This document shows, piece after piece, positions 2,338 to 54,175 of a stretch of DNA of 64,000 bases. The stretch comes from Giardia intestinalis (lineage: Eukaryota): NCBI GenBank assembly GCA_000002435.2, contig CM018793.1; one strand, 5' to 3'. The translations under genes and the position numbers were made by a program. The notes beneath the pieces are model-generated. The model had not been told where the DNA came from. It did not search any database and saw only the letters and a list, made by a program, of their open reading frames with translations. How positions within the stretch are numbered: position 1 is the stretch's first letter; the number at the start of each line of letters is the position of its first letter.

Positions 2338-3948
2338 TCAGTCTTTTCTTTGATCCTTGGCTGGCTTTTTCTCGCAGAGCATGATGGCGTTCCGGCATTC
2401 TTCGTAAGCTTCCGTAGACGCAAACTTGCTTTTATACTTCATAAGACGATTTAGAGGCGTTTGCCCGTTCAATGCAGGTATATTTCCCTCCAGAGGACCC
2501 AATGCTACAATCATGTCCCTGTTCGCCTTCGTGATGGATATCAGTAGACCCGTTTCGCCCTTGGCATCTGGAATTCTTGCTTCGTGCTTGGCAAGCAGGC
2601 GCACTGTATCCACATTAGCTCTCTCTACTGCCATATGAAGCGCTGAGCGACGCTTGCGAGCCGTCAATCCCGATTCGTGAAGGCAAAGAACTCTTGCTGC
2701 GTCATAGTTATTTAGTTGTGCTGCCTTCATGAGGGACGTATACCCATACATGTCTCTAGTCCGTACCTCGTACGGCACGAGCTCCTCTATACAATTAGTA
2801 TGGTTCCCAATCGCCGCCATCATGATCGCAGTTTCATCTCTCATATTCCTTATGCGAACCTCTCTGATCAGTAATCTTACTCCGTCAAGGAATCCTGTTC
2901 TGGCTGCTATCATCAGCGCAGTTGTCCCCGGAGGAAACGATACTGTCTTATCGTCTATATCAAGGACCAAGGTCTTCTCTGTTGCGTGTCCAAGAAACGA
3001 GAGGTTTTCGTTGAGAGCCACAGAATCCTTGTTGTACACTGCATCCATGAGAGGCGTTTTCCCACCTAAGGCAACCGGCTTCTGATATCTTTTCGAGTCT
3101 GCAAGAAAGAGCTCATGCGAGTTAGCCAATGATGTCTTTTTCATAGGTGGCTCTTCACTAGTACTAGTAGTGCATCCATATCTACCAGAGTTTGCCGAGG
3201 AATCGCCATTAGTCAACTGAGTGGGAGTCTTTGGGGCCTCGCCTCCCAACATAGCATGCAGAGAGAGCGCCTGTATGTGGCTCTCCTGTGAATTATAATC
3301 GTCCTGGTCGCTCATGGAAAGATCTATGACAAAAGGGACCATGGAGAAGCAACTAGTGAAGCTGCGCACGTCATCGACACTTGTCAGCCCAAGCTCTACC
3401 GCAGTAAAAAGCGTTCCAGTGTCCTTCCTTAGGTCATATGGGGTTTTTCCGTGAAAGTAGCTGGATAAAACCTTAGACATTCGTTTCAAGGTCAATGTTG
3501 AACTTTGCTCACAAATTTCTGTTAGTAGCTCTACTTCCTTCTCCTGTATGCAGCATTGGATGCGTTTAACTAATTGTACAAAGGCATCAATGATGGAAAT
3601 CTCTGTACACTGGGACCGAACGTATGGGATAAGAGGCAGATAGTCGCCCGGAACAACAATCTTTTCTGGGGATAGAAGAGGTGTACAGCCCTCTGAATGG
3701 ATCAGCATGGACCGTTCCAATATCCCTAGCGCTAATGTAGCTCCCATACCTTCTAAAAATCTCACTTCACGCTTGATAAATAAGGCGGTAAGATCTTCAA
3801 GTGTGGGCATGTATCTCGAGGTTGAATTCGCCCACGCAACACGCGGAAGATCATATATAGCTTTATAGGGAAGTGCAGTTTGTAAAGGTAACTGTTTGTT
3901 AAAGTAGTAGGCAGAGCTTTGTACCGAATTACGCTCCAGCTCTGTCAT
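2338..3948 (-). CDS. ankyrin-repeat protein (Giardia 'protein 21.1'-type)
   Basis: The C-terminal half holds at least four ankyrin repeats (TALMIAARTGFLDGVRLL, TAIMMAAIGNHTNCIEEL, TSLMKAAQLNNYDAARVL, SALHMAVERANVDTVRLL). The track start at 3993 is a GTG codon. The first ATG is at 3948 (MTELERN) with an upstream gcattttaaaaagtggATG. Confidence 0.7.
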   Translation of the reverse strand: MTELERNSVQSSAYYFNKQLPLQTALPYKAIYDLPRVAWANSTSRYMPTLEDLTALFIKREVRFLEGMGATLALGILERSMLIHSEGCTPLLSPEKIVVPGDYLPLIPYVRSQCTEISIIDAFVQLVKRIQCCIQEKEVELLTEICEQSSTLTLKRMSKVLSSYFHGKTPYDLRKDTGTLFTAVELGLTSVDDVRSFTSCFSMVPFVIDLSMSDQDDYNSQESHIQALSLHAMLGGEAPKTPTQLTNGDSSANSGRYGCTTSTSEEPPMKKTSLANSHELFLADSKRYQKPVALGGKTPLMDAVYNKDSVALNENLSFLGHATEKTLVLDIDDKTVSFPPGTTALMIAARTGFLDGVRLLIREVRIRNMRDETAIMMAAIGNHTNCIEELVPYEVRTRDMYGYTSLMKAAQLNNYDAARVLCLHESGLTARKRRSALHMAVERANVDTVRLLAKHEARIPDAKGETGLLISITKANRDMIVALGPLEGNIPALNGQTPLNRLMKYKSKFASTEAYEECRNAIMLCEKKPAKDQRKD

Positions 3949-4635: not shown

Positions 4636-5103
4636 GGCCCATCACAATCGAAATCCCAGTGAATCAAGTAAATTATCAATTAGACCTGGTTCATATATTT
4701 ATTTCTGGGCATTCCCTGCGTCACTCCCTGCAGGATTACTATCGTTAGCAGACACGCAGGGAGCAAGGTTCATAACCAAGACCTCATTTATAATACAAAA
4801 CTCTCCCTTCTGTCCTGGATTGTCCAGGAGACGTGTTGTTGGAAGAGTTTCGCGGTGAATCTGGAAGATGTTATTACCCGCGGTACCAAAGGACAAGTCT
4901 GGAACGTCAAGGTACGAAGGCAGCTTGAGAGGGAGGCGTATTTGTGTGCTAGGAGCCGCAAGCCCAGAGTCTAGAGATAGCAAGTAGTATTCTTCACTCA
5001 CGACATCCTGGGAAACAATCTCCTGCATGCCCCAGATCAAGGTGTTTCGCAATTTTTGATAAGATCTTGTGTCTTCACTTTTTTGAAAGAAAAACCGATT
5101 CCG

Positions 5104-6465
5104 ATGACATCTCTGGGTGCCATGCTAAAGGAATTTGCTGAAAGGCACCCCATCATTGAGCCGACGTATGCTGAAATGCAGAAGCAGATTTCAGCCTTCC
5201 TCCCGCCAATCTCTCCGTCTGTGTCAGTTCCTTTGTTTTCAAACCCCGGACTTCTTTCCTCAAGAGACGACCTTCAGGACACCTTTTATCGCATCAGCCG
5301 CACAGCCACACTGCGAAAGGTCTACGAACCCCTTCAACTCTGTACGATAAATGACCTCATAACGATCGTGGATACGCACACGCCAGCTGATCAGTTGATT
5401 GACTACAGGATTTTCCGTAGGATTCTAGCTGATATCTATCAGCGGAGCCCGATTTACAAGAATATTCTGACAGTTAAGACGTTTCTTGCTTTACCGCGTA
5501 CGAAGGACGTGGCGGCTTATCCTATAAAGACTCTCAAGTTCCACTCTGACGTTGTCAAGCTTTCTATTGTGCGCATTGTTTCTTCAGCCCAAACTCGAAT
5601 TACGCTTACAACGTGCGATGTTGACGGAAAAGGCTTTCTTTTAGAATCCGATGTTGAAAACTATATACTCGATATCTCGCATCTTTATCCACACTTGCAG
5701 GACTGTGACGAAGTGTTTCGCCCGTTCTATCTCTGCACCATCATCAAGCCCTTGTTTTTCTTTCTCGATCCTTATCACCGAAAGCGCATAGCTATATCAG
5801 ATTTGTTAATCAGCCCGTATCTTGACCAAATCTTTGCTAACCCATCTGATCAGCCGCAAGAAGCCCTGGGCACCCTGCAAGGGCCACTCGCACAACGCTA
5901 CTTAACTTGGTTCCATCCTGACGCTGTAATGGATCTCTACACCTCCTACATCAGCGCTGATACCGACCAGGATGGGCTCTTGAGTGATAAAGAGTTAGCA
6001 GCGTTGGCCAAATATAAGTTCACTAGCAGATTTATCAAGGCGTTGCTCTTGACAATTCAAACATTCAACGGCAAAATGGATTACCGTGGCTTCATAGATC
6101 TAATGCTCTGCGTCTCCTTCCCGCGCAGCAAAGCTGCGGCAGTCTATATCTTCAAAATACTAGACTTTAATTGTAAGGGACATCTAACTAGAGACGATGT
6201 GCTATATTTCCTACAGGAAATGGTAGATGGGCTTCAGGGGTACTGCGGCGAGGGCGTGAAGTTTAACGTCGATGACCTTTGTGATGAAGTGTTTGACAGC
6301 ATCTCTCCCAAAAGCAACAGCATGGTTACTCTTTCGGACATAATTAGCTCTCGTAGCGGCGACATTTTGATTACCTTTTTAATTGATCCACTCTTGTTCA
6401 TTGAAAAGGAGTTGCAGCTTCAACAAGGCCACGTGATGATGAGGCCCTTGCCTTTTGAGGTCTAG
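5104..6465 (+). CDS. EF-hand protein resembling protein phosphatase 2A regulatory subunit B'' (PR72/PR130/TON2 family)
   Basis: The protein has a canonical EF-hand loop DTDQDGLLSDKE plus two weaker loops (DVDGKGFLLESD, DFNCKGHLTRDD). The order and spacing of its hydrophobic blocks follow the B'' family: KGHLTRDDVLYFLQEMVDGL...FNVDDLCDEVFDSISP...VTLSDIIS corresponds to GVLSMYELEYFYEEQ...FHDLLCQMLDLV...ITLRDLK as I recall it. The track start at 5056 is TTG. The first ATG is at 5104, preceded by ttttttgaaagaaaaaccg. Confidence 0.55.
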   Translation: MTSLGAMLKEFAERHPIIEPTYAEMQKQISAFLPPISPSVSVPLFSNPGLLSSRDDLQDTFYRISRTATLRKVYEPLQLCTINDLITIVDTHTPADQLIDYRIFRRILADIYQRSPIYKNILTVKTFLALPRTKDVAAYPIKTLKFHSDVVKLSIVRIVSSAQTRITLTTCDVDGKGFLLESDVENYILDISHLYPHLQDCDEVFRPFYLCTIIKPLFFFLDPYHRKRIAISDLLISPYLDQIFANPSDQPQEALGTLQGPLAQRYLTWFHPDAVMDLYTSYISADTDQDGLLSDKELAALAKYKFTSRFIKALLLTIQTFNGKMDYRGFIDLMLCVSFPRSKAAAVYIFKILDFNCKGHLTRDDVLYFLQEMVDGLQGYCGEGVKFNVDDLCDEVFDSISPKSNSMVTLSDIISSRSGDILITFLIDPLLFIEKELQLQQGHVMMRPLPFEV

Positions 6466-6512: not shown

Positions 6513-9500
6513 TTAGTCTGATGAACCAGGTCGGCGTTTAAATTTGGTGTCTCTCCACTCCACCAGGATATTGTGGCCAAACATGATCACGGATTTGAGA
6601 TGTTTTAGACGGCCAGTCGACCAAATGAGAGCAATGATGCTAATTGTATAGACAAAGACTACGACGACTAAAACAATCACCACCGTCACAATCCTGTTAT
6701 AGAGGTATGTGTTTATTTGCTTGGACACCGCCTCCATCGCTACCTGAAGAGTGTCACTCATTACTCTAAAGGTTTCTAAGTTGCTTGTGAGGTTGATGTT
6801 ACTTAGAGGCACAAGAAGGTTTAAAATCTGACCTAGAGTGATACTTCCGGTAACGTTGGTGCCATTGGTGCTGTTGATGAGATTGATTGTATAATTAGCA
6901 TTGATTCCGAGAGGACTAATTTGGTCTGCGATATGAGTTATCCTCGTGAGGGCTGGGATACTCAATTCTGTAAGCCTCTCATACAACTTCCTGCAGGACA
7001 CATGACCCGTCGTCACGGATTCGTGTTGGTTCCAATAGAGGAGCGTTGAGTCTATCTCTGCAGAGAATCCTTGGATCCTCTCGCCAAAGCGCACACTGGG
7101 GCTACTAAACTTCAGCACATACTCAGAGCCATAGCAGATTGACTCTAGCATGATACGTAGCAAATGTATATGCTCTGCGTGAAGATCACAGAAAGACTGA
7201 AATCTCTGCGCGCTTTCCTTGATCGCAATCTTCTCTTCCACACTTAAGTTGTCCGTTGACGAGTATGAGTACTTAGATGCATATTCCGGGTGTGTTTCGG
7301 CCTCTGTAATCAGATACTGGTTAATGTAGCGGACGCTTTCTACAAGCATGGGCATGCCCTTTACATAGCTACTTATGCTGTAGTATTTTGCATACATGAA
7401 AATAAGCCCTATGCTCCCCCATAGAAAGAACAGCCCAAAGGTTCCAATAAGTAACGGAACTAGTGTATAGAAGACGATTTCTCCTAAAAAGAGCTGTTTT
7501 GTCCCAACGATTTGCGACGACGCTATCTTGTCAAATAGCTTTCGCACCTTGTCATTCCTATGAAGATGCTTTGCAGCATGCTCATCCATCTGCATGTTAT
7601 ACATGCTGTTCACCATGTGCCCTGTCTGCTCCAGTAGCATCTCGACTTCAATCGCAGAAACCTCCTGTGGAGAGTCTGAAGAACTCGAAGGGCTATCCTT
7701 GAGCATTCTAGCGTACACTGTGTATATGGGAAGGGAAGAAAATACTATACTGATCGATATAGTAACCAGCGTAAGGAGAACACTGCAAATGATTAACAGA
7801 GACCTAACTTCGAGCTTAGAGTCGTGCTCTTTTTGCTTCTGGACAAAGAGAGACATTATGCCATCGTAGAGTCTGCCAAAAGCATACTCCATTCCCATGT
7901 TTGCCTGATCAAGAGTATCTAGATGCATCTGAGCAATAGAATCTAAAATATTAATGTGGCTGTCTGGAGAATCTGCGGTTGGCTGATAGAGGGCTAAAAC
8001 GTAATTGTCTCTGAGATGTTTCTGAATTAAAATTGAAAAGCTTCTTTGCTCTGCAAACGAATAGAATGACGATAGCACTTCCTCGACAGTTCCCTGTGTG
8101 AACCTAGCGTTTCCAAGGTTCTCATTCCATCTAATCAGGGGTATATTCGGCTCTATTAACTTCTTTGCTGCATAGATGTACTCCTGGATGGAAATAGGAA
8201 AATCACTAAGGATGTAAGAGCTGTATGAAGGCATGGAGTTATAGAGCTGGAGCTCAGAGATATACGATGTCTCATTGTATCCGGAAAGCGCAGCATTCAA
8301 CAGGTCTTCCTTCAAGGCAGATATATTGTAGTAATCTTGGCGGTTTAAATGAGGAATGAAGAAGCCGTAGTAGTAGAGAAGCGATAGGCTTTCATGATAT
8401 ATAGTATCTAAGCGGTCTTGTGCCGGAACGAACACGTCTGTTGGTGAGTAGGCAACTGGTTGGTCTAGAAACGTCGCGATGCTGTCTCTTCGATAACGAA
8501 GGTGATAGCTGCTTAATTCATGGAGCGAGCGAATTAAGGCGTATTCTCTATCGATGCGAAATGCATATGCTAGATTAAAACCTGACAAGGAGACCAGCAT
8601 ACAGCCAGCAAGTCCTGCTGAAAAAATTCCGATGATTATCAAAATGTTAATATATTTTCTGATTTTCCCGGAGTTGAACCCGTGACTATGTCCATTAGAG
8701 AAGAGCAAGTGCTTGAAGCTCCAAAAAACATAGAGGCTGCAATAGAGAGCTAGAGGAATAATTGTTAGTAGAAGCACAGACAAGGAGATGATGGACATTA
8801 TGAAGTTAGTCGAAAGATTAAGGTCCACCAAACGGATTGTACCCGATGTATCTTTGAGTATATATTCCGTGAAGTTGCCGAACAGATAGAGCTTCATGGC
8901 ACGTTTCATAGTATCGTACACAGACTCACTGGAATTTTTGGGGCCCAAGTGAATCTCAACCTCTTGGTTAAAGCGCGCAGAGAAGAGATAGAAGAGGCTT
9001 TTGAAGCTTGTCATGTCCAGTATCTTATTTGCATGGTGATATAGGTCGCTGAAAGACCGCACAGCATCCTTGTTGGGACTATCGAAGTAATCTACAAGGA
9101 GAGTTGCTGGGGATCTTGGGTCCAAATAATGCTCCAAAGAATACGTATCATATAAAAGATTGCTGAAAAGTGTCTTCTTTAGGACGCATTCTGCGCTATC
9201 ATTTTCAACATCATAGTTTGTAGCGACGAAGTCGTAGGAGCTATCTTTTGCTTTGATCATTGGCAGCTCCAACATCGTATTTGAAACGTCTATAAAGTAG
9301 CGCAGAAGCTTGTAATATGTCAGGACCGTACTGTCGCTATAGAACGGCTTTACTTCTAAATGGTAATCGAGTTGGCGATGGATAACATTGCCGTCTCTAC
9401 GAGTATACTCAAGAAGTTGAGACGGAGCAACAATGCGGGTTAAGAACAAGAGGGGGGCTCGAAGCACAGTGAACAAATAACGAGGAGCCGTCAACAATGG

Positions 9501-12500
9501 CTCAAACACGAATGTTAATGCGTAGAACAAATTGCTGCATGGAGCTAAAATCCTTGCATAGGAGGTAAGCGGTATGGAGAAGACGTTGTACCTATTGAAC
9601 TCCGAAAACATGCTTTCTAACTCCTCAACATTGAGGTGCTTGACTGCGCTGGTATAGGTTTCTTTGTAAGTAGAAACGTTGGCGCCCATGCGAATGTTCC
9701 AGATCCCTGTTTCAAGATAGTTCAGCATGTGCTGAAAAAAGTGCAACTTCCGTGTCAAGAGGAGCGCAGACTCTGATGACATTACACGGTGGGTCAATGT
9801 CATGGAAATAGACCCCAGCACGTGAACAGATGCCACCGAAAGTACTACAGACAATATGACCAATAGGAGAAACAAACAGATAGGTTGGATGTTGTCTGCT
9901 TTGCGCTTTAAAGCCACGTATCGATAATTCATCTTGGAGTGCCTGGCGTTGATAACATTTATTGCACCTTCAACAATTTGCTTTTCTTCTGCTGATTGTG
10001 TGCTTAATGAACTTAGAAGGTCCAACTCACCCTTCAGCCTCGTGCACGTCTTCTCAAGCGCTTCCAGTCTTGACTTGAAGGATATAAAGATGCCCAAAAA
10101 GGGGCAGCAAATGAACACTCGCTGCATGAATGTTAAGCTGAGTGTGCTATCAGCTTGCTTTTTAATCTCTTTGATTTTTTCTAATACCTTGTGCGCCATC
10201 AGGTTGCAACAAAATCTCCTAGATTGCTTGAAGTGACTGACCCTGTGGCTTGATGATGTTGATCTGGTCTCTGCAATTAGACTCTCATTGTTCAGGTCCT
10301 CTGAGCGAAGGGGTGTGCTAAACCGTGATTTGGTTGTGCTTCTGTCACCCGTATTCTGTGAGCGACTGTCTAGCATAGTAGACAAGATTTCGGGACAATG
10401 ACGATGAGAGGATGATAGAAAAGATTGCTGGTTCTGCTGGCTCGTAGATGCCTCTGCTATTCTTGGCAATTCTCCGTGAGTCTTAACATCGTCTACCTCT
10501 TGAACAGACGGCTCTGCAGACGTTGCTGGGGTCTGCATCGTAGTCCCCGAAGCTCTTGTCTGGAGTTTAGATGTGCTAATACTTGTGCTAAAAGGGGTCA
10601 TCCGAGACTGACTAGATGACTTGTTAATGTGGGGGTCTCTTAAGAGCATCTGCAAGGCATTAATATCGTAAAACTGGATCACAAAGTCACATATCTTAAA
10701 ACAGATCGCGTTAGATAAACGAGAAATGTCATTGTAGTTAAGCTGCTGATAAATGCTGAGAATTCTAAAGAAAACAATGATGAGTTTGCGAAACTGGATG
10801 CTGCGGATAGTTGATATAACGATAACAAGACATAGCGTGCATATCAGTATGTGAATTGGGAGCTCTATGTTGAAAAGGTATTGAACAGCGAGATCCCTTG
10901 CGACTGTGGAATATAGAATCAACTTCTTGACCCCCTGTGGCGCTGTTTCAAAGATATTTTGATCAAATAACGGGGTCGTCGTGAACCTCGAATCATCAAA
11001 CTTGATATGGAACCTCTCGTTGTCGGGCAGATACGTCTTCTGATACAATAGAGACGACAAGATGTCTGCATATTCTCTGAAGGATACGGTATAGGCAAAA
11101 ATTGGGGATAACGCCTTGGACTGCTTAAGCACACTAGGAGTTATGCTAATACGAGGGATATAATTCTCCAGCTGTGCCTGATATTCCCACAGCCAGTGAA
11201 AGGTCTCTGGTATTTGCAATACTTTAGACAGTAGCGGGTTTGTTCGCATAACACTAATATATGAAAAGATTTTGGAGGGGTCTATGATCCCAGAGAGCAA
11301 ATCTTGGAAGGTCTTGCTGGGAGTTGTTAAATTGGTAAAGAAGCTTAAGAAGATTGTAATGTCATCACTATTCTCGTTGTAGAGCTCTGATGGAAATAGA
11401 TTGATCAGCTGAGACTTGTAGAAGGAATCGTTTTCTAGTGCGTTGACATCATTTGTTATCGCATTGCTGCTACCATTGTAAAGTAAGTAGTCCTGCGTGG
11501 AACTTGATTCGTTTCCATTTAGAAACGAGTACTGGGACAGGTGCGTTAAGATCCCGTTGCACAACCCTTCTCCATAAAAGCATGACAAGCTCAGACTCGC
11601 AGTGGCTACAGTCTCATACTGCTTCCGCATCTCCGCGGAGCACTTACCTCTAGTGTTGCTTGTGAGTTTCTTATCAATCGACCAAAGTCTAACGTTGTGT
11701 ATGTATTTATAGAGTAGAAGATCTAAGTAGTCTGACAATGTGAGACCTCTAACCCACAGATCGCCAAGATAAAAATAAATTATACAAAAGAGTACAAAAA
11801 GGAAGAGAGCCGTTCCTGCTAAGGATATGTAAAATGATGCAGTTGTATGGGGAGCGTTATCTAGCTGGTGAGGTAGATTGAACCAACCCTTTAGGGTCCT
11901 CATGCGTTCTGATATGAAGCCTAGATGCACCTTTCTCCCAACAATTGAGATTGCCCGGATTCCATCTGCACGCTTTGCAATCTGCTCTTCAAGTTGTCGC
12001 CTATAGGTTTTGCTCAGATTTGCACCAAAAATATCATTCTCATGAGCGGCTGCATGTTCTTCGTGATTGTGCGAATCAAATAAGGAGCCCAGATACCCTC
12101 TAGCCTTGATGTCAGAATAGTTATCTATCTGCGGGTCATAGTGCTGCGAAATGGGCAAGCCTTCGCTGAATATTTCTGTACTAGAATTGTCATTACCCGC
12201 AGAGCTCTGTGAAGCCGGCGTGTTTCGTCCTGAACTGTGCACGTGGTATAAGCCAGACATGCCGGGACTGTCGTGATGTGCCACGTTGATTCCGCTGTGT
12301 GTATGAACTACAATATTTAAGAAGCTTCTCAAGTGAGGCGTCCTATCTGCTTCTATCGCTTCTGGTATGATCTCTCTGCAAATCTTTGCAAAGCGTGCCG
12401 TATCCTTTGGGCAGAAATTAAAAGAACGAAGAAAACCATAATACATAAACAAAATCGATTGGTCCTTGTGTCGAATTGTAGTTGTGGACGAGAGGACTTT

Positions 12501-15500
12501 TCTTACGATACAGAACTCATTGTAGATTAACTGTAGTACTGTCACAAGGGTCCAGTTTTGCAAGGTAAGAGATTGATGACTCTTTGCTCCGAGAAGATCG
12601 TGATACATCGAGGTTTCCCCCTGGCCCCTAGTTAAGGGCTTGAAAAGTACTATAAACCCAGACAACAATCTAAAAAACCGAAGGAAATTGTTTTTAAATA
12701 GCGTATCCACAAATATGTGCCCAGTATTCCCTACTGTGAGGATGGAGTTGTTGTTATCTGCCGCCTCAAATGTATAGATGTTCTCAATCAAATCGATGAG
12801 TACAACTAATGTCATAATTGAGAAAGTATCTTGTGAAACGCCCCCAACGCGAACAATCTTTGCCTCGGGTCTAATTAGCTCCCCAACCGCCTGAGTGAGG
12901 AGTTTCTCGCTAGTAAGTAACTCGGAAACGGAGTGCTTCTCATCCTTAGAAGAAATACCGGCCAAGTCCCGCTGTACTTGCTCAGCGGTGTAATTACCTG
13001 GGGTGGGTACTGGATGGCCTCTTACTGGTGGTGTTGGTGCTGTTGTTGCGAAAGCCAGGTTTGAACTTGATCGGGACACGGACGAAAAGGCAGAGTCGGT
13101 TATTGCGATCGGTTCTAGCTTAGTTGAACCGAGAATAATTGAGGATGATGTGTCCTGTGTTTGGTCCGAGACCACAGACTCACAATACCCATTTGAATGG
13201 CCCTTATGAGGTTGTTCAGGGACCTTTTCCTGCTTCTTGGCATGCTTCTTCTGCTTTTTTCTCCGCCATATCTGTACCAAGTTTGGCCAGCGGGCTAGCT
13301 TGAATAGGCTGTTTTCAGATCTATTTCCCAAAGGATCTACTATCGTTTTAGTCTTGCGTTTACCGAAAATAAATTTCTGAAATGTGTTTTGGCCTATTGA
13401 AGTATTAATATATGCATAGTATTTAATGAGACGTGAAAGGGCAACTGCCGGAGGAAGATCATAGGTGATCGAGGGCGCAAACCTTGTACTCCATCTTTCC
13501 GTTGTGCCGATACCCAGTTTTCCACCGTCAGTTCCATCATCTACAAGATACACTTCATCTCCAGATACTTCTTTTGGACTGGAGAGTGTGTACTCCGAGT
13601 TCTCAAGAGAGGTGTACTTAATTCTCTGCTCCCGCAAGAAAAGCTGAAAGCTGTGTCCATATGGTGTAGCAGATCCCGGTGAATCATCTAACAATTGAAA
13701 TTGTGAGTGCATAGTACTGCGCCCAGCTAGATGCGCATCTGACCAGCACTTGAACAAAGGGGTGAAAACCTCCCTTTCGCTATACGTGTGTATGGTCACT
13801 AGTGTGCCCTTCTCAAAGCGGCTGTACAGAGTGGGCACGTAGGGAACTATAATCACGGTTCGGTCCTTTCCATCCGGCATCCTCTGTTGCAGATATGTGG
13901 AGTCTGTATCTGCGATCTTAGACCCTTGACCCTGTATCTTAACTGTAAAGGCGGTAAAAGCGGGCACATATGGGAACAGAGTGTCATAAATCAGAGAAGG
14001 ATAGCTCACCTCCTGATAGACAGACTCCAACTCAAAAATCTTGAAGTCAATCTTAGGGAACAAGGAGAGCAAGTGGGTCTTAAAGAAGTACTGCGCAGGC
14101 GATAGATGTTTTCCTGCTAGTGAAATGAAATTGAATAAAGTCGTCGTATCTTGATGGATTGCAGATTGATTTCCAGTCAACTTTTTAGAATTTAGTGCTG
14201 CAAATTGGAGCGTCTTCTGATGAATTTGTTCTTCGTAACGCTTGTTCCCCGTCATCCCAGTGTAATTCAACATAATTTCCAGAATAGTGCCGAAGTATAT
14301 AAAGACCCAGGGGCTTGCAAAGTAGCTCCAGGCGAAGTCCAGGGCCATAGTAAGCTCCGCGCTATGCAATATGCGTATGTGAGAAATGCTTACAGATTTG
14401 GTGAAAATGACAGCCAAGATCTGGCCAAACTCTGCACAGGTCGACGTTATAAATGGTACAGCATACTTCCTTGCCAAATACATTGCAATACAGTGCTCGC
14501 GATAAAGATGTTGGGGCATGAAAAACGAGTCCGTAATGGTCCGGGCCTCGGATGAGACGAGCACAGAACATATATCGATATATCTGAAGAAGCTTGTGCT
14601 GTGCAATTGAGACGCCAGCTCCTTGTAGTCATCCGCCTTTGTGGCGCTGTCATTGAGAAGAAGAAGAATAAACCCCAAGATTGCCATTTCAATCTTCTCC
14701 TGTCTAACAATGAGACAATTAAAAATAAGCTTTATCAAATATCTATCTAGTGCTGTATCCATTCCGTATGTGCGAAGCTCACAAAGTCGCGCAAGCCTGA
14801 TATTGTGGATAGAAAACTGCTCAAGGAGAAACGGTGGCTGCTGTCCGCGTGCATGCAAGGCAATTCCATACTTTTTATTCAAGAGGATTTCCTCTTGTGG
14901 GGTGCCCAAATTAACAAGGTCTATATCCTTAGAAAGGGTCATTCCTCTAACAAACTCGTAGAAGGACAACAAAAGGGACAGAGGATAGTAGATGCATATT
15001 AAGTACAGCAGTATCCCCGGAGGAAAAAGGAAGATCTTGGTGTTGAAGTAAGTTGTGGCCTTTTGTGTTTCTATGCTTAGTTGAATGCATGAGGCTTCAA
15101 ACCTGTGGATTGGAATCCCGTCTCTTTCATTGCAGTTTCTGACAAAGGTGGTTAGAAGCGCATATAGCCTAGATGACGATCTTCCCATCAGGCTGCTTCC
15201 CTCTAGGAACCGCATGAAGGAAATGGAGCGAGTGAAGTGCTCAACGCTGTCATGGTATTTGCTGTACTTATAAAGGACCATGAGTAACGCAATTAGTAGG
15301 GCACTTAGATACGTAATGGCATAGAAGCCTGCACTGGAAAGGCCTGGAGAAATTGTAGAAAAGAAGTACACTAGTGAACTAATTACCGTTATAGATGCAG
15401 TATACACTGTCACAAAGGTCAAGAGGATGTTACTAATAAGTGACGCAAAGATTTCAGCTTGAATTACAAAGAATATTAAGATGAGTGAGTGAAGTACATA

Positions 15501-16139
15501 GATGTAGTTGTCATAAAAAGGGTAGAGCTGTGCAAGAAAAGGCCCCAACGAAAAGAGCTTAATAATGGCCAGGAGCTGGCGAGTATCCAACACTGCAGAA
15601 ATAGTTAATATGTGGACATTGTGAACGTTAAAGCGGGAGATGATATTCAAATCAATGACTTGCTTAATAAGCCACCCCAACGTCAAGATCACGAGCCAGA
15701 GGATCTTCATGGAGGTACGAATATACACGACTTTGGCTATAAACTGACCCATGTTAATTAAAATCGGGGCTTCTGTCACTAAAATTAAATTGGTGCATAG
15801 TCCAAAGCTAAACCAATAGATATATGGATGCCGGAGAAGGGCGCGACTCAGGTAAGCTGTTAAAAGATAAAATAGAACGGCTCCTAGATATGCAAATGCT
15901 GCAACAGAAATAACGACTCTTTGCCAATCATCAATACCACACAGGAATCTGCTGATAGAAAAGGGAAGATGGGTGTGGTCCATCATACCCGGGGCTATGC
16001 ACATTCCTACGATGTTCTGAAAACCGATGAGTACAAAAACTATTAATAGCGGTCCAAGGGTTGTCTTATAGAGGTAATTATTTGGCCGCCAGCGCACAAA
16101 GCCCTTAGAAATAATTAAGAGTAGCCGGCGTAGGCCCAT
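6513..16139 (-). CDS. giant (3208 aa) polytopic membrane protein, function unknown
   Basis: A single uninterrupted 9.6-kb ORF begins with a true ATG whose upstream context is tttaaaaaataag. The first 620 residues or so contain roughly 10-12 strongly hydrophobic segments. Additional TM-like segments (ALFLFVLFCIIYFYLG, ICLFLLLVILSVVLSV, SIISLSVLLLTIIPLALY, INILIIIGIFSAGLAGCMLVSL, LLIICSVLLTLVTISISIVF, LVPLLIGTFGLFFLWGSIGLIF, C-terminal VTVVIVLVVVVFVYTISIIALIW) are scattered between long soluble, partly S/T-rich regions. I saw no Walker or other catalytic motif. Confidence 0.65.
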   Translation of the reverse strand: MGLRRLLLIISKGFVRWRPNNYLYKTTLGPLLIVFVLIGFQNIVGMCIAPGMMDHTHLPFSISRFLCGIDDWQRVVISVAAFAYLGAVLFYLLTAYLSRALLRHPYIYWFSFGLCTNLILVTEAPILINMGQFIAKVVYIRTSMKILWLVILTLGWLIKQVIDLNIISRFNVHNVHILTISAVLDTRQLLAIIKLFSLGPFLAQLYPFYDNYIYVLHSLILIFFVIQAEIFASLISNILLTFVTVYTASITVISSLVYFFSTISPGLSSAGFYAITYLSALLIALLMVLYKYSKYHDSVEHFTRSISFMRFLEGSSLMGRSSSRLYALLTTFVRNCNERDGIPIHRFEASCIQLSIETQKATTYFNTKIFLFPPGILLYLICIYYPLSLLLSFYEFVRGMTLSKDIDLVNLGTPQEEILLNKKYGIALHARGQQPPFLLEQFSIHNIRLARLCELRTYGMDTALDRYLIKLIFNCLIVRQEKIEMAILGFILLLLNDSATKADDYKELASQLHSTSFFRYIDICSVLVSSEARTITDSFFMPQHLYREHCIAMYLARKYAVPFITSTCAEFGQILAVIFTKSVSISHIRILHSAELTMALDFAWSYFASPWVFIYFGTILEIMLNYTGMTGNKRYEEQIHQKTLQFAALNSKKLTGNQSAIHQDTTTLFNFISLAGKHLSPAQYFFKTHLLSLFPKIDFKIFELESVYQEVSYPSLIYDTLFPYVPAFTAFTVKIQGQGSKIADTDSTYLQQRMPDGKDRTVIIVPYVPTLYSRFEKGTLVTIHTYSEREVFTPLFKCWSDAHLAGRSTMHSQFQLLDDSPGSATPYGHSFQLFLREQRIKYTSLENSEYTLSSPKEVSGDEVYLVDDGTDGGKLGIGTTERWSTRFAPSITYDLPPAVALSRLIKYYAYINTSIGQNTFQKFIFGKRKTKTIVDPLGNRSENSLFKLARWPNLVQIWRRKKQKKHAKKQEKVPEQPHKGHSNGYCESVVSDQTQDTSSSIILGSTKLEPIAITDSAFSSVSRSSSNLAFATTAPTPPVRGHPVPTPGNYTAEQVQRDLAGISSKDEKHSVSELLTSEKLLTQAVGELIRPEAKIVRVGGVSQDTFSIMTLVVLIDLIENIYTFEAADNNNSILTVGNTGHIFVDTLFKNNFLRFFRLLSGFIVLFKPLTRGQGETSMYHDLLGAKSHQSLTLQNWTLVTVLQLIYNEFCIVRKVLSSTTTIRHKDQSILFMYYGFLRSFNFCPKDTARFAKICREIIPEAIEADRTPHLRSFLNIVVHTHSGINVAHHDSPGMSGLYHVHSSGRNTPASQSSAGNDNSSTEIFSEGLPISQHYDPQIDNYSDIKARGYLGSLFDSHNHEEHAAAHENDIFGANLSKTYRRQLEEQIAKRADGIRAISIVGRKVHLGFISERMRTLKGWFNLPHQLDNAPHTTASFYISLAGTALFLFVLFCIIYFYLGDLWVRGLTLSDYLDLLLYKYIHNVRLWSIDKKLTSNTRGKCSAEMRKQYETVATASLSLSCFYGEGLCNGILTHLSQYSFLNGNESSSTQDYLLYNGSSNAITNDVNALENDSFYKSQLINLFPSELYNENSDDITIFLSFFTNLTTPSKTFQDLLSGIIDPSKIFSYISVMRTNPLLSKVLQIPETFHWLWEYQAQLENYIPRISITPSVLKQSKALSPIFAYTVSFREYADILSSLLYQKTYLPDNERFHIKFDDSRFTTTPLFDQNIFETAPQGVKKLILYSTVARDLAVQYLFNIELPIHILICTLCLVIVISTIRSIQFRKLIIVFFRILSIYQQLNYNDISRLSNAICFKICDFVIQFYDINALQMLLRDPHINKSSSQSRMTPFSTSISTSKLQTRASGTTMQTPATSAEPSVQEVDDVKTHGELPRIAEASTSQQNQQSFLSSSHRHCPEILSTMLDSRSQNTGDRSTTKSRFSTPLRSEDLNNESLIAETRSTSSSHRVSHFKQSRRFCCNLMAHKVLEKIKEIKKQADSTLSLTFMQRVFICCPFLGIFISFKSRLEALEKTCTRLKGELDLLSSLSTQSAEEKQIVEGAINVINARHSKMNYRYVALKRKADNIQPICLFLLLVILSVVLSVASVHVLGSISMTLTHRVMSSESALLLTRKLHFFQHMLNYLETGIWNIRMGANVSTYKETYTSAVKHLNVEELESMFSEFNRYNVFSIPLTSYARILAPCSNLFYALTFVFEPLLTAPRYLFTVLRAPLLFLTRIVAPSQLLEYTRRDGNVIHRQLDYHLEVKPFYSDSTVLTYYKLLRYFIDVSNTMLELPMIKAKDSSYDFVATNYDVENDSAECVLKKTLFSNLLYDTYSLEHYLDPRSPATLLVDYFDSPNKDAVRSFSDLYHHANKILDMTSFKSLFYLFSARFNQEVEIHLGPKNSSESVYDTMKRAMKLYLFGNFTEYILKDTSGTIRLVDLNLSTNFIMSIISLSVLLLTIIPLALYCSLYVFWSFKHLLFSNGHSHGFNSGKIRKYINILIIIGIFSAGLAGCMLVSLSGFNLAYAFRIDREYALIRSLHELSSYHLRYRRDSIATFLDQPVAYSPTDVFVPAQDRLDTIYHESLSLLYYYGFFIPHLNRQDYYNISALKEDLLNAALSGYNETSYISELQLYNSMPSYSSYILSDFPISIQEYIYAAKKLIEPNIPLIRWNENLGNARFTQGTVEEVLSSFYSFAEQRSFSILIQKHLRDNYVLALYQPTADSPDSHINILDSIAQMHLDTLDQANMGMEYAFGRLYDGIMSLFVQKQKEHDSKLEVRSLLIICSVLLTLVTISISIVFSSLPIYTVYARMLKDSPSSSSDSPQEVSAIEVEMLLEQTGHMVNSMYNMQMDEHAAKHLHRNDKVRKLFDKIASSQIVGTKQLFLGEIVFYTLVPLLIGTFGLFFLWGSIGLIFMYAKYYSISSYVKGMPMLVESVRYINQYLITEAETHPEYASKYSYSSTDNLSVEEKIAIKESAQRFQSFCDLHAEHIHLLRIMLESICYGSEYVLKFSSPSVRFGERIQGFSAEIDSTLLYWNQHESVTTGHVSCRKLYERLTELSIPALTRITHIADQISPLGINANYTINLINSTNGTNVTGSITLGQILNLLVPLSNINLTSNLETFRVMSDTLQVAMEAVSKQINTYLYNRIVTVVIVLVVVVFVYTISIIALIWSTGRLKHLKSVIMFGHNILVEWRDTKFKRRPGSSD

Positions 16140-17528
16140 ATCACTTATTTTTTAAATCGCGCCCTCACCTTTTTCAATCAAGATAGCACTGTGAGTATAA
16201 CAATTGCTCACGATTGGCAAAGGTATGCAAGGCTACAAAAGATGTACGCATCAGTAACACCTTGTAATTATGCCATAAGAACTTGTACGACTTAGTACTG
16301 CTTTACTGAATCCATAGTGCTATTTGCTCACCAAGCTTTTGCACATACCACTGATACACACGAATGCTGGGTATGTTCTTGCATCTAATTGTACCAATCG
16401 ATATGTAGTTTAGATAGATTGTAATTTTGCGGACGAAGTATCGTCTTCTATGCTGCTTCATACTGCTGCGCATCACCTTGTTGTAGTAGGAATCCTTCTT
16501 TAGGTTTTTGTGTCTATTGCTCTACTCATGCTATACTGAGAGAAACATCGACTGTCTGGAGCAGTGCAAAAAGCTTCCTAGCTGCAGGGTATTTCCGGAG
16601 TTTGAATAAGGAGTGTCTCCGGAGCGTGTCCCTTTCTAGGTTATCACCTGCCATTTCTGGTATACCGCCAAATGATGTACAAACTTTCAAGTCAGTGCAG
16701 CCGGTCTCAAGTTAATAGCAGCAACGCTCCTAGATGATAAAATAGCCCCAGAGGTGTTATGAAGCCAGTACATGGAATAATTTTATCTAAAGGCTCTGCT
16801 ATGCATGCATACTGTCTCAATGGTTCCAAGATAGTTGTGATCACTTGCCTTTAAGTGAGATGCTTGTAGTGCGGTGTGCAACCGCAGCAGACGTTGGCTC
16901 CGCTGCCACGTAGATCTTAAGCAATGATCTGTAGCATCCACAAGTATGCGGCTAGTTTAATATTGATCATAAACTGGAATGCCTTAGTCCGGCTGACTAT
17001 CACAAGTGACTGTGCAAAGATATGGGCACTGAGTAAACGGATATAACTAAAGAGAGCGGAAGTTATAGGGGTGCAATGCTCACTGACAAGTTGGAGGTTG
17101 AGGTACAGAAAGCTTCAGTCACCCTCGAGGTCCGTTCTCTTGTTACCATAAAGCATATCTGACATTGGTAGTAAGTATAGAGAGAAGGTTGTTACCACAA
17201 TACACACTTAGAGTAGGAGGTTTCGATAGACCAACCTTCGAATATGACGTATCCACAAATAAGAGCAAGACTTTCATAGAGAATTGAGGAGGTAGGACAG
17301 CATCAAGGCGCTCAACCTGGGCAAGGTTTATAAAACCTGTAAAGGACAGGTTGCAATCAAACTATCAAGTATTGACGTCAAAACCTTTTACACAATTCCT
17401 CCTTCTATCAAGACACGACACTAGTGTCTACTAAATTGGGCTCGACAAGCATAGCCGTCGTATTTCATGTTAATAAGCTAAAATGTTTTATCGTTTAATT
17501 CTTTGAGTAGCCAAATCAACGTATTGAT

Positions 17529-19040
17529 ATGCTAGTACTACTACTATTTTCTATTGCTTTGGGATGTGCCCTGGGTACACCTTTTACTAACGAACCTGAA
17601 CATGGAATGGGTGTCCGCTTCACCCGACGCGGACTGGAGAAGTTCTGCCAGAAGGGCTACTCTATCATTCCTGACGTTATCTCTGCTCTTCCAGCGTTTC
17701 CAGAGATACCCATAACTGTCGGGATTTTGCAGATTACTCTCTCCAATATCAGACCCCGTGCAGTGCGTGTTTCAACCATGAAGGTTTATTTGCAAGACAA
17801 CAACTTTGTCAAGATGGAGGCTCGGGACGGCATCATGCAGATCTCGATGCGGCTTAAAACTACCATTACTGGGATCACCGGGACCGTCGACTGCATCTTC
17901 ACCCTCAAGGACTTCGGGGCAGACATCTCCCTGAGGCTCGGAGACGACCCCACCTGCCCGTACCATTTCGGGCTTTCCGAGATATCGAACGTCGTGTACT
18001 CGTCTGGGCTCGACATCGATGCCATCGGACTTGACACGGGGGGATCTGTCCTTGCAACTGCCATCCAGGGCATGGGGCCCACGCTGGAGACCCTGGTGAA
18101 GGATACTGTGCTGCAATTCCTTTTAGATACCATCTTTAAGTCGATAAAGCAGTCAATGCTTAACCTGCCCATAGTTGTCCAGATCAACAATGACTACATG
18201 TCTGACCAGCGCTACATCAATGGCATCAATGTCGTCGATAACAAGATAGTGGCAGACCAAGGTGGCTTTTCAATGATCGTTGCTATCCCAGATTGGTCGG
18301 TCAGAGCTCTCTATCCAAACAAGATCACCTCTCCCCCTCCGAAGACAGTCTACACCGACAGGGACTATGAGTTCTATGTAGACAGGGAGTCGGTCAACTC
18401 CTACCTGTATGCCTGGCACGTGGCGTATGACAAGTTCAAGGCAGACGGTCTCACTGTCCCGTACAGCACCATCAGGGGGCAGAACATACCCGGCCTTGCA
18501 GAGGCTCTTGTGAAAGCAGGCATGTTAACCGATGTCAGTGATCCCGGAAATGATGTCACCCTGACTCTATCGGTCAGTCCCTCCAAGGATGCCGCACCCC
18601 ACATCCCGTGGATCGGGGCAGCTGCACTGTTGACCAATCTCACAGGAACACTTGTTGTGACAACCAGCAAGGTATCAGGCCAAACTCCGGTGACTTTAGC
18701 CAATCTCGAGGGCAATGTGCTCTTCTCTTCTGCGGTCAAGCTTAGGAAGTTTACCTACGGGTTTAACAACGACCAAGTTCGTGCATATGCAGAGTTCCTT
18801 GATGTGTACGATATTGCCACCAAGAAGCACAGCGAAGGGATGGATGATCCTGTTCCTCTACTGAAGCGTCTTCTTCTAGATAAGTACCTCCCCCTTGTTA
18901 ACCCGATCCTGGCCGAGACAGGGGTGGCCCTCATGAACGGGAACTTCATCGACTACGCTACCATCGACACTGTTTATCTGTGCAGCGAGGACAGAGTGCT
19001 CTTTGTTGCTGACATCGAGAAGAATCGATATTTTTCCTAA
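17529..19040 (+). CDS. secreted BPI/LBP/CETP-family (bactericidal/permeability-increasing-like) lipid-binding protein
   Basis: There is an N-terminal signal-peptide-like MLVLLLFSIALGCALG. The following 480 aa or so repeatedly match my recollection of the BPI N-terminal barrel (GVRFTRRGLEKFCQKGYSI vs RISQKGLDYASQQGTAA; VGILQITLSNIRP...; DCIFTLKDFGADISLRLGDDPTCPYHFGLSEISNVVYSSGLDID vs [40 protein letters not shown]). The start is a true ATG. Confidence 0.55.
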   Translation: MLVLLLFSIALGCALGTPFTNEPEHGMGVRFTRRGLEKFCQKGYSIIPDVISALPAFPEIPITVGILQITLSNIRPRAVRVSTMKVYLQDNNFVKMEARDGIMQISMRLKTTITGITGTVDCIFTLKDFGADISLRLGDDPTCPYHFGLSEISNVVYSSGLDIDAIGLDTGGSVLATAIQGMGPTLETLVKDTVLQFLLDTIFKSIKQSMLNLPIVVQINNDYMSDQRYINGINVVDNKIVADQGGFSMIVAIPDWSVRALYPNKITSPPPKTVYTDRDYEFYVDRESVNSYLYAWHVAYDKFKADGLTVPYSTIRGQNIPGLAEALVKAGMLTDVSDPGNDVTLTLSVSPSKDAAPHIPWIGAAALLTNLTGTLVVTTSKVSGQTPVTLANLEGNVLFSSAVKLRKFTYGFNNDQVRAYAEFLDVYDIATKKHSEGMDDPVPLLKRLLLDKYLPLVNPILAETGVALMNGNFIDYATIDTVYLCSEDRVLFVADIEKNRYFS

Positions 19041-21626: not shown

Positions 21627-21680
21627 TAAAGGCGACTGTAGTTTTGACGTTGATTGGCGGTATTGCTATTCCATAAAATT

Positions 21681-22613: not shown

Positions 22614-22640
22614 CGTGGATGGATGTTAGTAAATTAAAAG

Positions 22641-37583: not shown

Positions 37584-37605
37584 CTTTCGCCCCCAAAGAA
37601 AAAAG

Positions 37606-54084: not shown

Positions 54085-54175
54085 CATTAATATTTTAGGG
54101 TGCCATAAAACAGAAACGGCCGCTTCAAAAAATCGGCACTGTAAAAAAAGCCGTTGGGCCGAAATTTGAGGAGCC

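What the first reader, a model, noticed from the sequence alone, without database searches (positions are those of the whole stretch)
6513..16139. 3208-aa polytopic membrane giant with no recognisable catalytic motif
It is one of the largest uninterrupted ORFs expected in a Giardia-sized genome. An N-terminal bundle of about a dozen TM helices is followed by long soluble S/T-rich regions, interspersed with isolated TM hairpins all the way to the C-terminus. This layout resembles large channel or transporter-like scaffolds such as Piezo, but I cannot confirm any specific family by eye.
Basis: seen in the sequence. Interest (0 to 1): 0.6.

Follow-up and report, generated by a model that had tools for sequence, protein, structure and literature searches.

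The report
Orphan giant Giardia membrane protein
This is a real, conserved 3,208-residue protein that crosses the membrane about 16 times, is found only in Giardia and two close unnamed relatives, and resembles neither Piezo nor any other known protein family, so its function remains unknown.

Summary
The ORF is real. It lies on the minus strand at 6513..16139 and encodes 3,208 aa (chance P about 1e-78). It is Giardia duodenalis WB GL50803_96605, annotated "hypothetical protein". The identical protein is encoded in 23 contigs from separate sequencing-run assemblies. Full-length collinear orthologues exist in three other assemblages and in two unnamed deep-branching Giardia-like genomes (22-26% identity). 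dN/dS is 0.11 overall and at most 0.27 in every 150-codon window. mRNA is detected in two studies and is higher in cysts.

About 16 TM segments are conserved: 7-9 in aa 22-394 rather than a dozen, then eight more. Those eight frame four acidic, apparently helical "TM-ectodomain-TM" cassettes. Serine/threonine-rich, disorder-like linkers lie in the predicted cytosolic parts.

Nothing links it to Piezo or any known family. Pfam, NCBIfam and PDB profile searches gave no hit. An exhaustive HMMER scan of 1.84 billion proteins with the N-terminal 960 aa found only its orthologues. There is no PF(X2)E(X6)W or QxxRW motif and no internal repeat. AlphaFold failed (pLDDT 31 and 42).

Verdict: a genuine single gene for a lineage-restricted orphan membrane protein. 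Its function is unknown and the mechanism offered is inferred only. No protein-level evidence was found. Interest is moderate to low.

The parts
6513..16139 (-). Complete CDS of GL50803_96605 (3,208 aa plus TAA stop)
   Evidence: ORF list and translation. 100% match to NCBI 'hypothetical protein GL50803_0096605'. dN/dS 0.106 between WB and P15.
16140..16160 (-). AT-rich stretch directly upstream of the ATG (TTTAAAAAATAAGTGAT), a likely initiator/promoter element
   Evidence: Sequence read. The assignment as a Giardia-type AT-rich initiator rests on general knowledge and was not tested.
14958..16076 (-). N-terminal membrane module, aa 22-394: 7-9 hydrophobic helices carrying conserved polar or charged positions (Q41, S98-R99, H104, T122, P125, N165, R169-F170)
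   Evidence: Hydropathy in six orthologues. Invariant columns. Best-matching part of the profile to P0005 and P0006.
15099..15242 (-). Invariant juxtamembrane block, aa 300-347: E300-x3-R304-S305-x2-F308-x-R310-x2-E313-G314 ... N335-x-N337 ... G341-x-P343 ... F347. It sits in a net-basic loop.
   Evidence: Invariant in all six orthologues despite 22-26% overall identity. dN/dS 0.05 in this window. The loop is net positive in 6 of 6 orthologues.
13950..14957 (-). Best-conserved soluble domain, aa 395-730, predicted helical. It contains R456-x2-G459-x-D461-x3-D465-R466 and A608-x-P610-W611.
   Evidence: dN/dS 0.01-0.05. Invariant columns. Helices in the low-confidence AlphaFold model.
11829..13949 (-). 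Remainder of the large predicted cytosolic region S1 (aa 731-1437). It includes polar, S/T-rich, disorder-like linkers (aa 817-894, 926-1084, 1274-1352), a polybasic patch at about aa 958-972, and a conserved island at aa 1096-1254.
   Evidence: Composition scan. Highest dN/dS in aa 900-1050 (0.22). BLASTP block 1096-1254 shared with P0005.
10800..11828 (-). Cassette 1: TM9 (aa 1438-1458), acidic domain S2 (aa 1459-1759), TM10 (aa 1760-1780)
   Evidence: Both TMs are conserved in six orthologues and S2 is net negative in 6 of 6.
9882..10799 (-). Predicted cytosolic linker S3 (aa 1781-2086): basic, with an S/T-rich disorder-like stretch at aa 1825-1984
   Evidence: Net positive in 5 of 6 orthologues. 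TM11 has 3 more K/R upstream than downstream in 6 of 6. Composition.
8739..9881 (-). Cassette 2: TM11 (aa 2087-2107), acidic domain S4 (aa 2108-2446), TM12 (aa 2447-2467)
   Evidence: TMs conserved and S4 net negative in 6 of 6 orthologues.
8652..8738 (-). Short basic loop between TM12 and TM13 (aa 2468-2496), predicted cytosolic
   Evidence: Net +3 to +6 with no acidic excess in 6 of 6 orthologues.
7737..8651 (-). Cassette 3: TM13 (aa 2497-2519), acidic domain S5 (aa 2520-2780), TM14 (aa 2781-2801)
   Evidence: TMs conserved and S5 net negative in 6 of 6 orthologues. dN/dS 0.04 at aa 2531-2680. Long helices continuous with the TMs in the low-confidence model.
7485..7736 (-). Linker S6 (aa 2802-2885), predicted cytosolic
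   Evidence: Placement follows from parity in the topology model. The charge evidence for it is weak.
6588..7484 (-). Cassette 4: TM15 (aa 2886-2916), domain S7 (aa 2917-3151, the most sequon-dense loop at 2.6 N-x-S/T per 100 aa), TM16 (aa 3152-3174)
   Evidence: dN/dS 0.05-0.06 at aa 2829-3125. Identity to P0005 peaks at 32% in aa 3001-3100.
6516..6587 (-). Basic C-terminal tail (aa 3175-3208), predicted cytosolic. G3176, F3187 and N3190 are invariant, as is the adjacent W3173 at the end of TM16.
   Evidence: Net positive in 6 of 6 orthologues. Invariant columns.

Best explanation
SHOWN: this is one genuine, single-copy, transcribed protein-coding gene (GL50803_96605). It encodes a multi-pass membrane protein of about 16 TM segments. 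Its full-length architecture is conserved in four G. duodenalis assemblages and two unnamed, standard-genetic-code, compact Giardia-like genomes. No relative was detected anywhere else.

INFERRED architecture: the N-terminus is cytosolic. It is followed by a polar N-terminal bundle of 7-9 TM helices with an invariant basic juxtamembrane block. Next comes a cytosolic region of about 1,040 aa: a tightly constrained helical domain at aa 395-730, then S/T-rich disorder-like linkers. The rest is four tandem 'TM, acidic helical ectodomain of 235-340 aa, TM' cassettes. These are joined by cytosolic linkers of 306, 29 and 84 aa and end in a short basic cytosolic tail.

INFERRED mechanism (my commitment, weakly supported): a non-enzymatic, lineage-specific membrane scaffold or sensor. 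The four cassettes would build about 1,100 aa of helical-bundle surface on the luminal or extracellular face. The flanking TM helices would couple that surface to the N-terminal TM module and to the large cytosolic domain, which may be regulated by phosphorylation. The ectodomains have few cysteines, unlike Giardia's cysteine-rich surface proteins, so an endomembrane (ER, nuclear envelope or peripheral vacuole) location is slightly favoured over the exposed cell surface. The higher mRNA level in cysts is compatible with a role at excystation, but it is shared with about 1,800 other genes.
For: Real gene: the ORF itself; chance probability about 1e-78; the identical protein in 23 contigs from separate sequencing-run assemblies; orthologues of 3,208, 3,184-3,198, 3,227, 3,460 and 3,014 aa that are collinear end to end; dN/dS 0.106 overall and at most 0.27 in every window; mRNA at log2CPM about 7.3-8.8 in trophozoites and 10.2-11.2 in cysts.

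Restricted distribution: exhaustive HMMER with the aa 1-960 profile against 1.84 billion representatives returned only P0001, P0005 and P0006. Three k-mer-seeded searches of 5.8 billion proteins and a JGI metagenome scan added nothing. L007 and L008 use all three stop codons.

Architecture: all 16 hydrophobic cores are present at aligned positions in six orthologues. The N-tail, the TM12-13 loop and the C-tail are net positive in 6 of 6. S2, S4 and S5 are net negative in 6 of 6, and S7 in 5 of 6. S3 is positive in 5 of 6. Sequon density is highest in S7.

No catalytic signature: Pfam, NCBIfam and PDB profile searches were empty.
Confidence: 0.4

Rival explanations
1. It is a highly diverged ion channel or transporter, with a Piezo-like mechanosensor. 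The polar N-terminal TM bundle would form the permeation or substrate path, and the ectodomain cassettes and cytosolic domain would regulate it.
For: Conserved polar or charged positions lie within or at the ends of the N-terminal helices (Q41, S98-R99, H104, T122, N165, R169). An invariant juxtamembrane block sits at aa 300-347. Constraint is very strong on aa 301-750 (dN/dS 0.01-0.05). The protein is large and multi-pass.
Confidence: 0.22
2. It is a member of a known eukaryotic family (for example a GT-C or processive glycosyltransferase, a bridge-like lipid-transfer protein or a Pecanex-like ER protein) that has diverged beyond sequence recognition in the fast-evolving Giardia lineage. The most interesting sub-case is the still unidentified cyst-wall GalNAc polymer synthase.
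For: From general knowledge, Giardia proteins are often extremely divergent. The cyst wall synthase is still described only as an enzyme activity 'tentatively called' CWS (PMC13315228). Membrane polysaccharide synthases are large polytopic proteins. The mRNA is highest in cysts.
Against: No glycosyltransferase, lipid-transfer or other model is hit. There is no QxxRW motif and only 2-5 DxD triplets per 3,000 aa. The modelled regions are almost entirely helical, with no Rossmann-like alpha/beta segment or beta-groove (low confidence). The mRNA is flat from 0 to 31.5 h of encystation, the period when wall synthesis is induced, and rises only in water-treated mature cysts. 1,786 genes show that pattern.
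Confidence: 0.12
3. It is an artefact: a mis-assembly, a fusion of several genes, or a decaying pseudogene that happens to stay open.
For: No peptide evidence was found in four proteomic data sets. The middle of the protein contains poorly conserved low-complexity linkers.
Against: The identical ORF is present in 23 contigs read from separate sequencing-run assemblies. It is intact and collinear in six lineages down to 22% identity. dN/dS is at most 0.27 in every 150-codon window, linkers included. The chance of such an ORF is about 1e-78. It is transcribed.
Confidence: 0.01

Closest known systems
Piezo mechanosensitive channels
   Same: A very large eukaryotic multi-pass membrane protein with long extramembrane regions interspersed between TM segments.
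   Different: No Pfam hit of any kind. No similarity to any solved Piezo chain in PDB profile searches. No PF(X2)E(X6)W motif. About 16 TMs rather than 38. No repeated four-TM units and no internal repeats. No match in fold searches (weak model).
Four-helix-bundle sensor modules of bacterial chemoreceptors and sensor histidine kinases (QseE, TorS, NarQ, MCP ligand-binding domains)
   Different: The match is a generic up-down helical bundle at 6-11% identity, to a model with pLDDT 42. De novo bundles, ApoE, catenin and talin match equally well. No HAMP, kinase or MCP signalling domain is detected. The ectodomains here are 235-340 aa against about 120-160 aa. This is a resemblance only, not homology.
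Processive membrane polysaccharide synthases (GT2 cellulose, chitin and hyaluronan synthases; GT48 glucan synthase), as candidates for the missing Giardia cyst wall synthase
   Same: Large polytopic proteins with big soluble domains between TM clusters. Giardia needs such an enzyme and none has been identified.
   Different: No glycosyltransferase model is hit and no QxxRW motif is present. The soluble regions are predicted helical rather than Rossmann-like. The expression timing does not follow wall synthesis.
Other Giardia 'hypothetical' lineage-specific membrane proteins
   Same: Annotated as a hypothetical protein, with no domains and expression rising in cysts. The largest group of cyst-upregulated genes is hypothetical proteins, several of them multi-pass (PMC8700996).
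   Different: It is far larger. It is single-copy, with no paralogue in the exhaustive N-terminal search. Its architecture is conserved into two deep-branching relatives.

Membership tests
Piezo | Match to the Piezo sequence models in Pfam-A | tested here: not met
   hmmscan of P0001, P0004, P0005 and P0006 against all of Pfam-A at E<=1 returned no Piezo model, and no credible family at all.
Piezo | Sequence similarity to solved Piezo1/Piezo2 chains | tested here: not met
   Profile searches of PDB sequences with A1 (full length), A2 (aa 1-960) and A4 (aa 2400-3208) at E<=10 gave only three noise hits, none of them Piezo.
   Regular-expression searches for PFEW, PF.W, PF..E......W and relaxed forms found nothing in any of six orthologues.
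Piezo | About 38 TMs arranged as nine repeated four-TM units plus a C-terminal pore module | tested here: not met
   About 16 conserved TMs: 7-9 clustered at the N-terminus, then eight singles that pair around large loops. hhalign of all soluble blocks against each other gave probabilities of 3.5% or less.
Piezo | Piezo blade/pore fold | tested here: inconclusive
GT2 processive polysaccharide synthases / cyst wall synthase candidate | GT2 catalytic domain with D, DxD, D and QxxRW signatures | tested here: not met
   No glycosyltransferase model in Pfam-A or NCBIfam is hit. QxxRW is absent from six orthologues.
GT2 processive polysaccharide synthases / cyst wall synthase candidate | Induction in parallel with cyst wall synthesis during encystation | tested here: not met
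   log2CPM stays at 7.8-8.5 from 0 to 31.5 h and rises only in mature cysts (PMC8700996 Table S1).
GT2 processive polysaccharide synthases / cyst wall synthase candidate | UDP-GalNAc-dependent beta-1,3-GalNAc polymerising activity | not testable with these tools
   This needs biochemistry on purified or knocked-down protein.
GT48 / GT-C membrane glycosyltransferases | Match to the family models (glucan synthase, STT3, PMT, ALG/PIG mannosyltransferases, DPY19 and others) | tested here: not met
   No hit at E<=1 for four orthologues. The fold-level test is inconclusive because the models are poor.
Bridge-like lipid transfer proteins (VPS13 / BLTP1 / Csf1 type) | An N-terminal anchor followed by a long repeating beta-groove | tested here: not met
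   No Pfam hit. The modelled 1,769 aa are almost entirely helical (low confidence). TMs are distributed along the whole length. aa 961-2399 were not modelled.
Known channel/transporter superfamilies (voltage-gated-like, ABC, P-type, RND/SSD, MFS, TMEM16/OSCA, MscS) | Match to any of their sequence models or solved members | tested here: not met
   Pfam, NCBIfam and PDB profile searches were empty. The MscK, ABC and TTYH rows in Foldseek have E>0.2 and TM-scores below 0.1.
GL50803_96605 orphan family (defined here) | Length over 3,000 aa, the invariant E-x3-R-S-x2-F-x-R-x2-E-G block after the N-terminal TM bundle, A-x-P-W at about aa 608, and eight collinear C-terminal TMs | tested here: met
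   Present in P0001, P0002, P0004, P0005, P0006 and P0007. E-values are 0 for P0005 and 1.8e-93 for P0006.

The most novel reading that the evidence does not exclude
GL50803_96605 founds a structurally new class of giant eukaryotic membrane protein. It would have a polar N-terminal TM core plus four tandem 'TM, helical ectodomain, TM' cassettes. It would perform an active, Giardia-specific membrane function: a new type of channel, transporter or sensor, or a membrane-cytoskeleton tether needed at the cyst-to-trophozoite transition. It would be neither a passive scaffold nor a diverged member of a known family.
Probability: 0.15. Interest if true: 0.7.

Novelty: categorically new. Interest (0 to 1): 0.35.

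Why it matters
If the protein is made and is essential, it is a parasite-specific target. It is large, strongly constrained (dN/dS 0.11) and has no detectable relative outside the Giardia clade, so none in humans. It probably exposes more than 1,000 residues on one membrane face, which would suit drugs or diagnostics. It would also add a new architecture to the short list of giant multi-pass eukaryotic proteins.

This should be kept in proportion. "Categorically new" here means only that no search could classify it. Hypothetical proteins are very common in Giardia, the ORF is already catalogued in public databases, no protein-level evidence was found, and nothing yet shows a new mechanism. The practical result is that the Piezo and glycosyltransferase leads can be dropped. 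The gene is better described as a conserved orphan with a defined topology model that can be tested by tagging.

Tried and rejected
- Pfam-A on the WB protein and three orthologues, and NCBIfam: no credible hit.
- PDB sequence-profile searches with the full-length, N-terminal and C-terminal alignments at E<=10: noise only.
- Three k-mer-seeded searches of 5.8 billion proteins: only the G. duodenalis assemblages plus P0005.
- Exhaustive HMMER with the aa 1-960 profile: one extra orthologue, P0006.
- JGI metagenome scan: nothing.
- AlphaFold2 on aa 1-960 (pLDDT 31.2) and aa 2400-3208 (pLDDT 41.8): both too poor to use.
- Internal repeats by self-BLAST and by hhalign of 12 blocks: none.
- Piezo and GT2 motifs: absent.
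- Hydrophobic-moment periodicity, to guess alpha versus beta structure in the unmodelled middle: uninformative and discarded.
- N-terminal di-arginine ER motif (R4-R5): seen by eye in the alignment and rejected, because it is not conserved in assemblage B, P0005 or P0006.
- Neighbouring giant ORFs in L007 and L008 as possible paralogues: the L007 neighbour is unrelated by BLASTP, and neither neighbour hits any Pfam family.
- Literature: neither gene ID occurs in the main text of any searchable paper, and searches on the bare number returned only unrelated papers among those listed. The G. muris genome supplements do not mention it.
- Proteome supplements: no peptide evidence. Stored supplement texts can be truncated.
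- Rfam on the whole window, to explain the long upstream spacer: only one unrelated tRNA.
Full report
**Observation.** The window carries a single uninterrupted ORF on the minus strand from 16139 to 6513. It has 3,208 codons plus a TAA stop and begins at an ATG. No other ORF of 150 aa or more overlaps it. With the local base composition, the chance of 3,208 stop-free codons is about 1e-78. The ATG is immediately preceded by TTTAAAAAATAAGTGAT. From my own knowledge, that is the AT-rich initiator context typical of Giardia genes. The encoded N-terminus aligns with the conserved N-terminus of the most distant orthologues.

**Identity and gene model.** The product is 100% identical to NCBI 'hypothetical protein GL50803_0096605 [Giardia duodenalis]'.
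- The exact protein is encoded in 23 contigs read from separate public sequencing-run assemblies. A mis-assembly or sequencing frameshift is therefore very unlikely.
- Full-length orthologues exist in assemblage E isolate P15 (3,208 aa, 85% identity), assemblage B (3,180-3,198 aa, about 70%) and a further assemblage (3,227 aa, 69%).
- Two unnamed deep-branching genomes also carry it: P0005 (3,460 aa as called, probably about 3,350) and P0006 (3,014 aa), at 22-26% identity.
- BLASTP to P0005 is collinear from aa 84 to aa 2611, and the multiple alignment runs to the C-terminus.
- The contigs carrying P0005 and P0006 are gene-dense and 50% and 55% GC. They use TAA, TAG and TGA as stops. That fits Giardiinae rather than the code-reassigned Hexamitinae. 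This is an inference, and the organisms were not identified.
- Nei-Gojobori dN/dS between WB and P15 is 0.106 for the whole gene and at most 0.27 in each of 22 windows of 150 codons. The minima of 0.01-0.05 are at aa 301-750, 2531-2680 and 2829-3125.
- The whole 9.6 kb is therefore constrained as one coding sequence. Transcript structure was not tested directly.

**Expression.** In the encystation RNA-seq map (PMC8700996, Table S1) the gene sits at log2CPM 7.8-8.5 in trophozoites and through 31.5 h of encystation. It rises to 11.2, 10.3 and 10.2 in the three cyst replicates and returns to about 8 after excystation. This is real but not distinctive. 1,786 genes are up in cysts in that study, and most of them are hypothetical proteins. 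A second study (PMC8866875) again detects the mRNA at log2CPM 7.3-8.8, but its proteomics columns for this gene are NA. The gene number is absent from the held supplement text of three other proteome papers. I therefore found transcript evidence but no peptide evidence. Stored supplements may be truncated.

**Architecture.**
- Hydropathy analysis of all orthologues shows 7-9 hydrophobic helices in aa 22-394. Eight further TM cores lie at about aa 1438, 1760, 2087, 2447, 2497, 2781, 2886-2916 and 3152. All are present at aligned positions in all six sequences.
- The charge distribution is conserved. The N-tail, the 29-aa loop at aa 2468-2496 and the C-tail are net positive in 6 of 6. S3 (aa 1781-2086) is positive in 5 of 6. 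S2, S4 and S5 are net negative in 6 of 6, and S7 in 5 of 6.
- S7 has the highest N-x-S/T density.
- By the positive-inside rule this gives a model with both termini cytosolic. The C-terminal 1,770 aa then form four tandem cassettes, each a TM, an acidic ectodomain of 235-340 aa and a second TM. Cytosolic linkers of 306, 29 and 84 aa join them.
- The large S1 region (aa 395-1437) and S3 are cytosolic in this model. They contain the polar, S/T-rich, disorder-like stretches at aa 817-894, 926-1084, 1274-1352 and 1825-1984. Those stretches overlap several of the fastest-evolving windows.
- Parity inside the N-terminal bundle is unresolved. The aa 292-371 loop carries the invariant E-x3-R-S-x2-F-x-R-x2-E-G block and is basic in every orthologue. 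Helix 372-394 is proline-rich and weakly hydrophobic in the distant orthologues.

**Search for relatives and folds.**
- Pfam-A gives no credible hit for the WB protein or three orthologues at E<=1, and NCBIfam gives none.
- Profile searches of all PDB sequences with full-length, N-terminal and C-terminal alignments at E<=10 give only three noise hits.
- An exhaustive HMMER scan with the aa 1-960 profile against 1.84 billion cluster representatives finds only the family itself.
- Three k-mer-seeded searches of 5.8 billion sequences and a JGI metagenome scan add nothing.
- No paralogue exists. Self-BLAST and hhalign of twelve blocks against each other find no internal repeat.
- AlphaFold2 with the shallow alignments fails, with pLDDT 31.2 for aa 1-960 and pLDDT 41.8 with pTM 0.38 for aa 2400-3208.
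- Both models are almost entirely helical, and in the second the TM helices run on into helices of 50-80 residues.
- Foldseek against PDB gives nothing (best E 0.11, TM-score about 0.1).
- That is a resemblance of low evidential value, not homology.

Piezo fails every test I could run. There is no model hit and no similarity to solved Piezo chains. PFEW and PF(X2)E(X6)W are absent from six orthologues. The TM count and spacing are wrong, and there are no repeats. The fold-level test is inconclusive only because the models are poor.

Glycosyltransferase folds are also unsupported. No GT model is hit, QxxRW is absent, and the modelled soluble regions are helical. I considered the attractive idea that this could be the still-unidentified cyst wall GalNAc synthase, which is still described only as an activity (PMC13315228). 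However, the mRNA is flat during the hours when the wall is built.

**Most likely explanation.** What is shown: this is a genuine, single-copy, transcribed, strongly constrained gene. It encodes a membrane protein of about 16 TM segments, restricted as far as can be detected to the Giardia clade.

What is inferred: my best guess, at about 0.4, is a non-enzymatic membrane scaffold or sensor. The four cassettes would present about 1,100 aa of helical ectodomain on the luminal or external face. They would be coupled to a polar N-terminal TM module and a large cytosolic domain that may be regulated by phosphorylation. The ectodomains contain 0-3 cysteines each in WB. That differs from Giardia's cysteine-rich surface proteins and slightly favours an endomembrane location.

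The main rival, at about 0.22, is a diverged channel or transporter built on the N-terminal bundle. The conserved polar residues there would fit that reading. A diverged member of some known family, including a glycosyltransferase, is at about 0.12, and an artefact at about 0.01. The remaining probability is for functions I have not thought of.

**Novelty and interest.** By every available measure the family lies outside known families, so I rate it 'categorically new' in the narrow sense of unclassifiable. The ORF is already catalogued as hypothetical, such orphans are common in Giardia, and no new mechanism has been demonstrated. Interest is therefore moderate to low (0.35). The useful outputs are a confirmed gene model, the removal of the Piezo and GT leads, a defined orphan family with signature motifs, and a testable topology model.

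Noticed in passing
window 16140-17528: A 1.39-kb stretch with no ORF of 60 aa or more lies between the giant gene's ATG and the divergently oriented 503-aa ORF. That is unusually long for this otherwise tightly packed window. The same gap (1,428 nt) exists in the P15 locus L009. It has no Rfam hit and is only 68% identical between WB and P15, against 84% for the CDS. It looks like weakly constrained spacer or a shared promoter region.
   Followed up: partly
window 17529-19040 (+): A 503-aa ORF with a signal-peptide-like N-terminus (MLVLLLFSIALGCALG). It has no Pfam hit and only noise in the PDB sequence search. From gene order in a published table it is probably GL50803_112630. It is another orphan, probably secreted or membrane-bound.
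   Followed up: partly
window 20766-23738 (+): Three tandem annexin-type genes (alpha-giardins) of 286, 319 and 365 aa. Neighbouring entries in the PMC8866875 supplement are named alpha-18, alpha-17 and alpha-16 giardin.
   Followed up: no
window 23986-30186 (+): A 2,066-aa ORF whose only recognisable part is an ASH/HYDIN/CFAP65-type Ig-like domain at aa 113-196. It may be a flagellar or cytoskeletal protein.
   Followed up: no
window about 600-33700 (genes GL50803_96616, 27836, 17157, 96605, 15101, 10036, 10034, 10033, 17155): In the PMC8866875 supplement, this whole run of adjacent genes is mildly down (log2 -0.4 to -0.9) in the same metronidazole-resistant lines. That looks like a segmental copy-number or aneuploidy effect rather than regulation of individual genes.
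   Followed up: no
L007 2646-10004 and 10001-20383: The gene call for the distant orthologue P0005 overlaps an upstream unrelated 2,452-aa ORF by 4 nt. It is probably over-extended by about 111 aa, because the conserved N-terminus starts at its Met112. In L008 the orthologue is also flanked by another domain-less giant ORF of more than 3,300 aa. Synteny with G. duodenalis (EF-hand gene downstream) is not kept.
   Followed up: partly
window 5056-6465 (+): The convergent downstream neighbour is an EF-hand protein. The ORF is 469 aa from a TTG start, and it is called as 453 aa in the public assemblies. It is listed as PP2A regulatory subunit B (GL50803_17157) in a published table. This neighbour is conserved next to the giant gene in P15 and assemblage B.
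   Followed up: no
window 37502-37583 (+): The single tRNA gene in the window (Rfam RF00005, 61 bits). It overlaps the first ~38 nt of a 715-aa ORF (37546-39693, GTG start as listed), so that ORF's true start is probably further downstream.
   Followed up: no
window 51721-54405 (-) and 54176-55432 (+): Two long ORFs on opposite strands overlap by 230 nt, so one of them is probably not a real gene over its full length.
   Followed up: no
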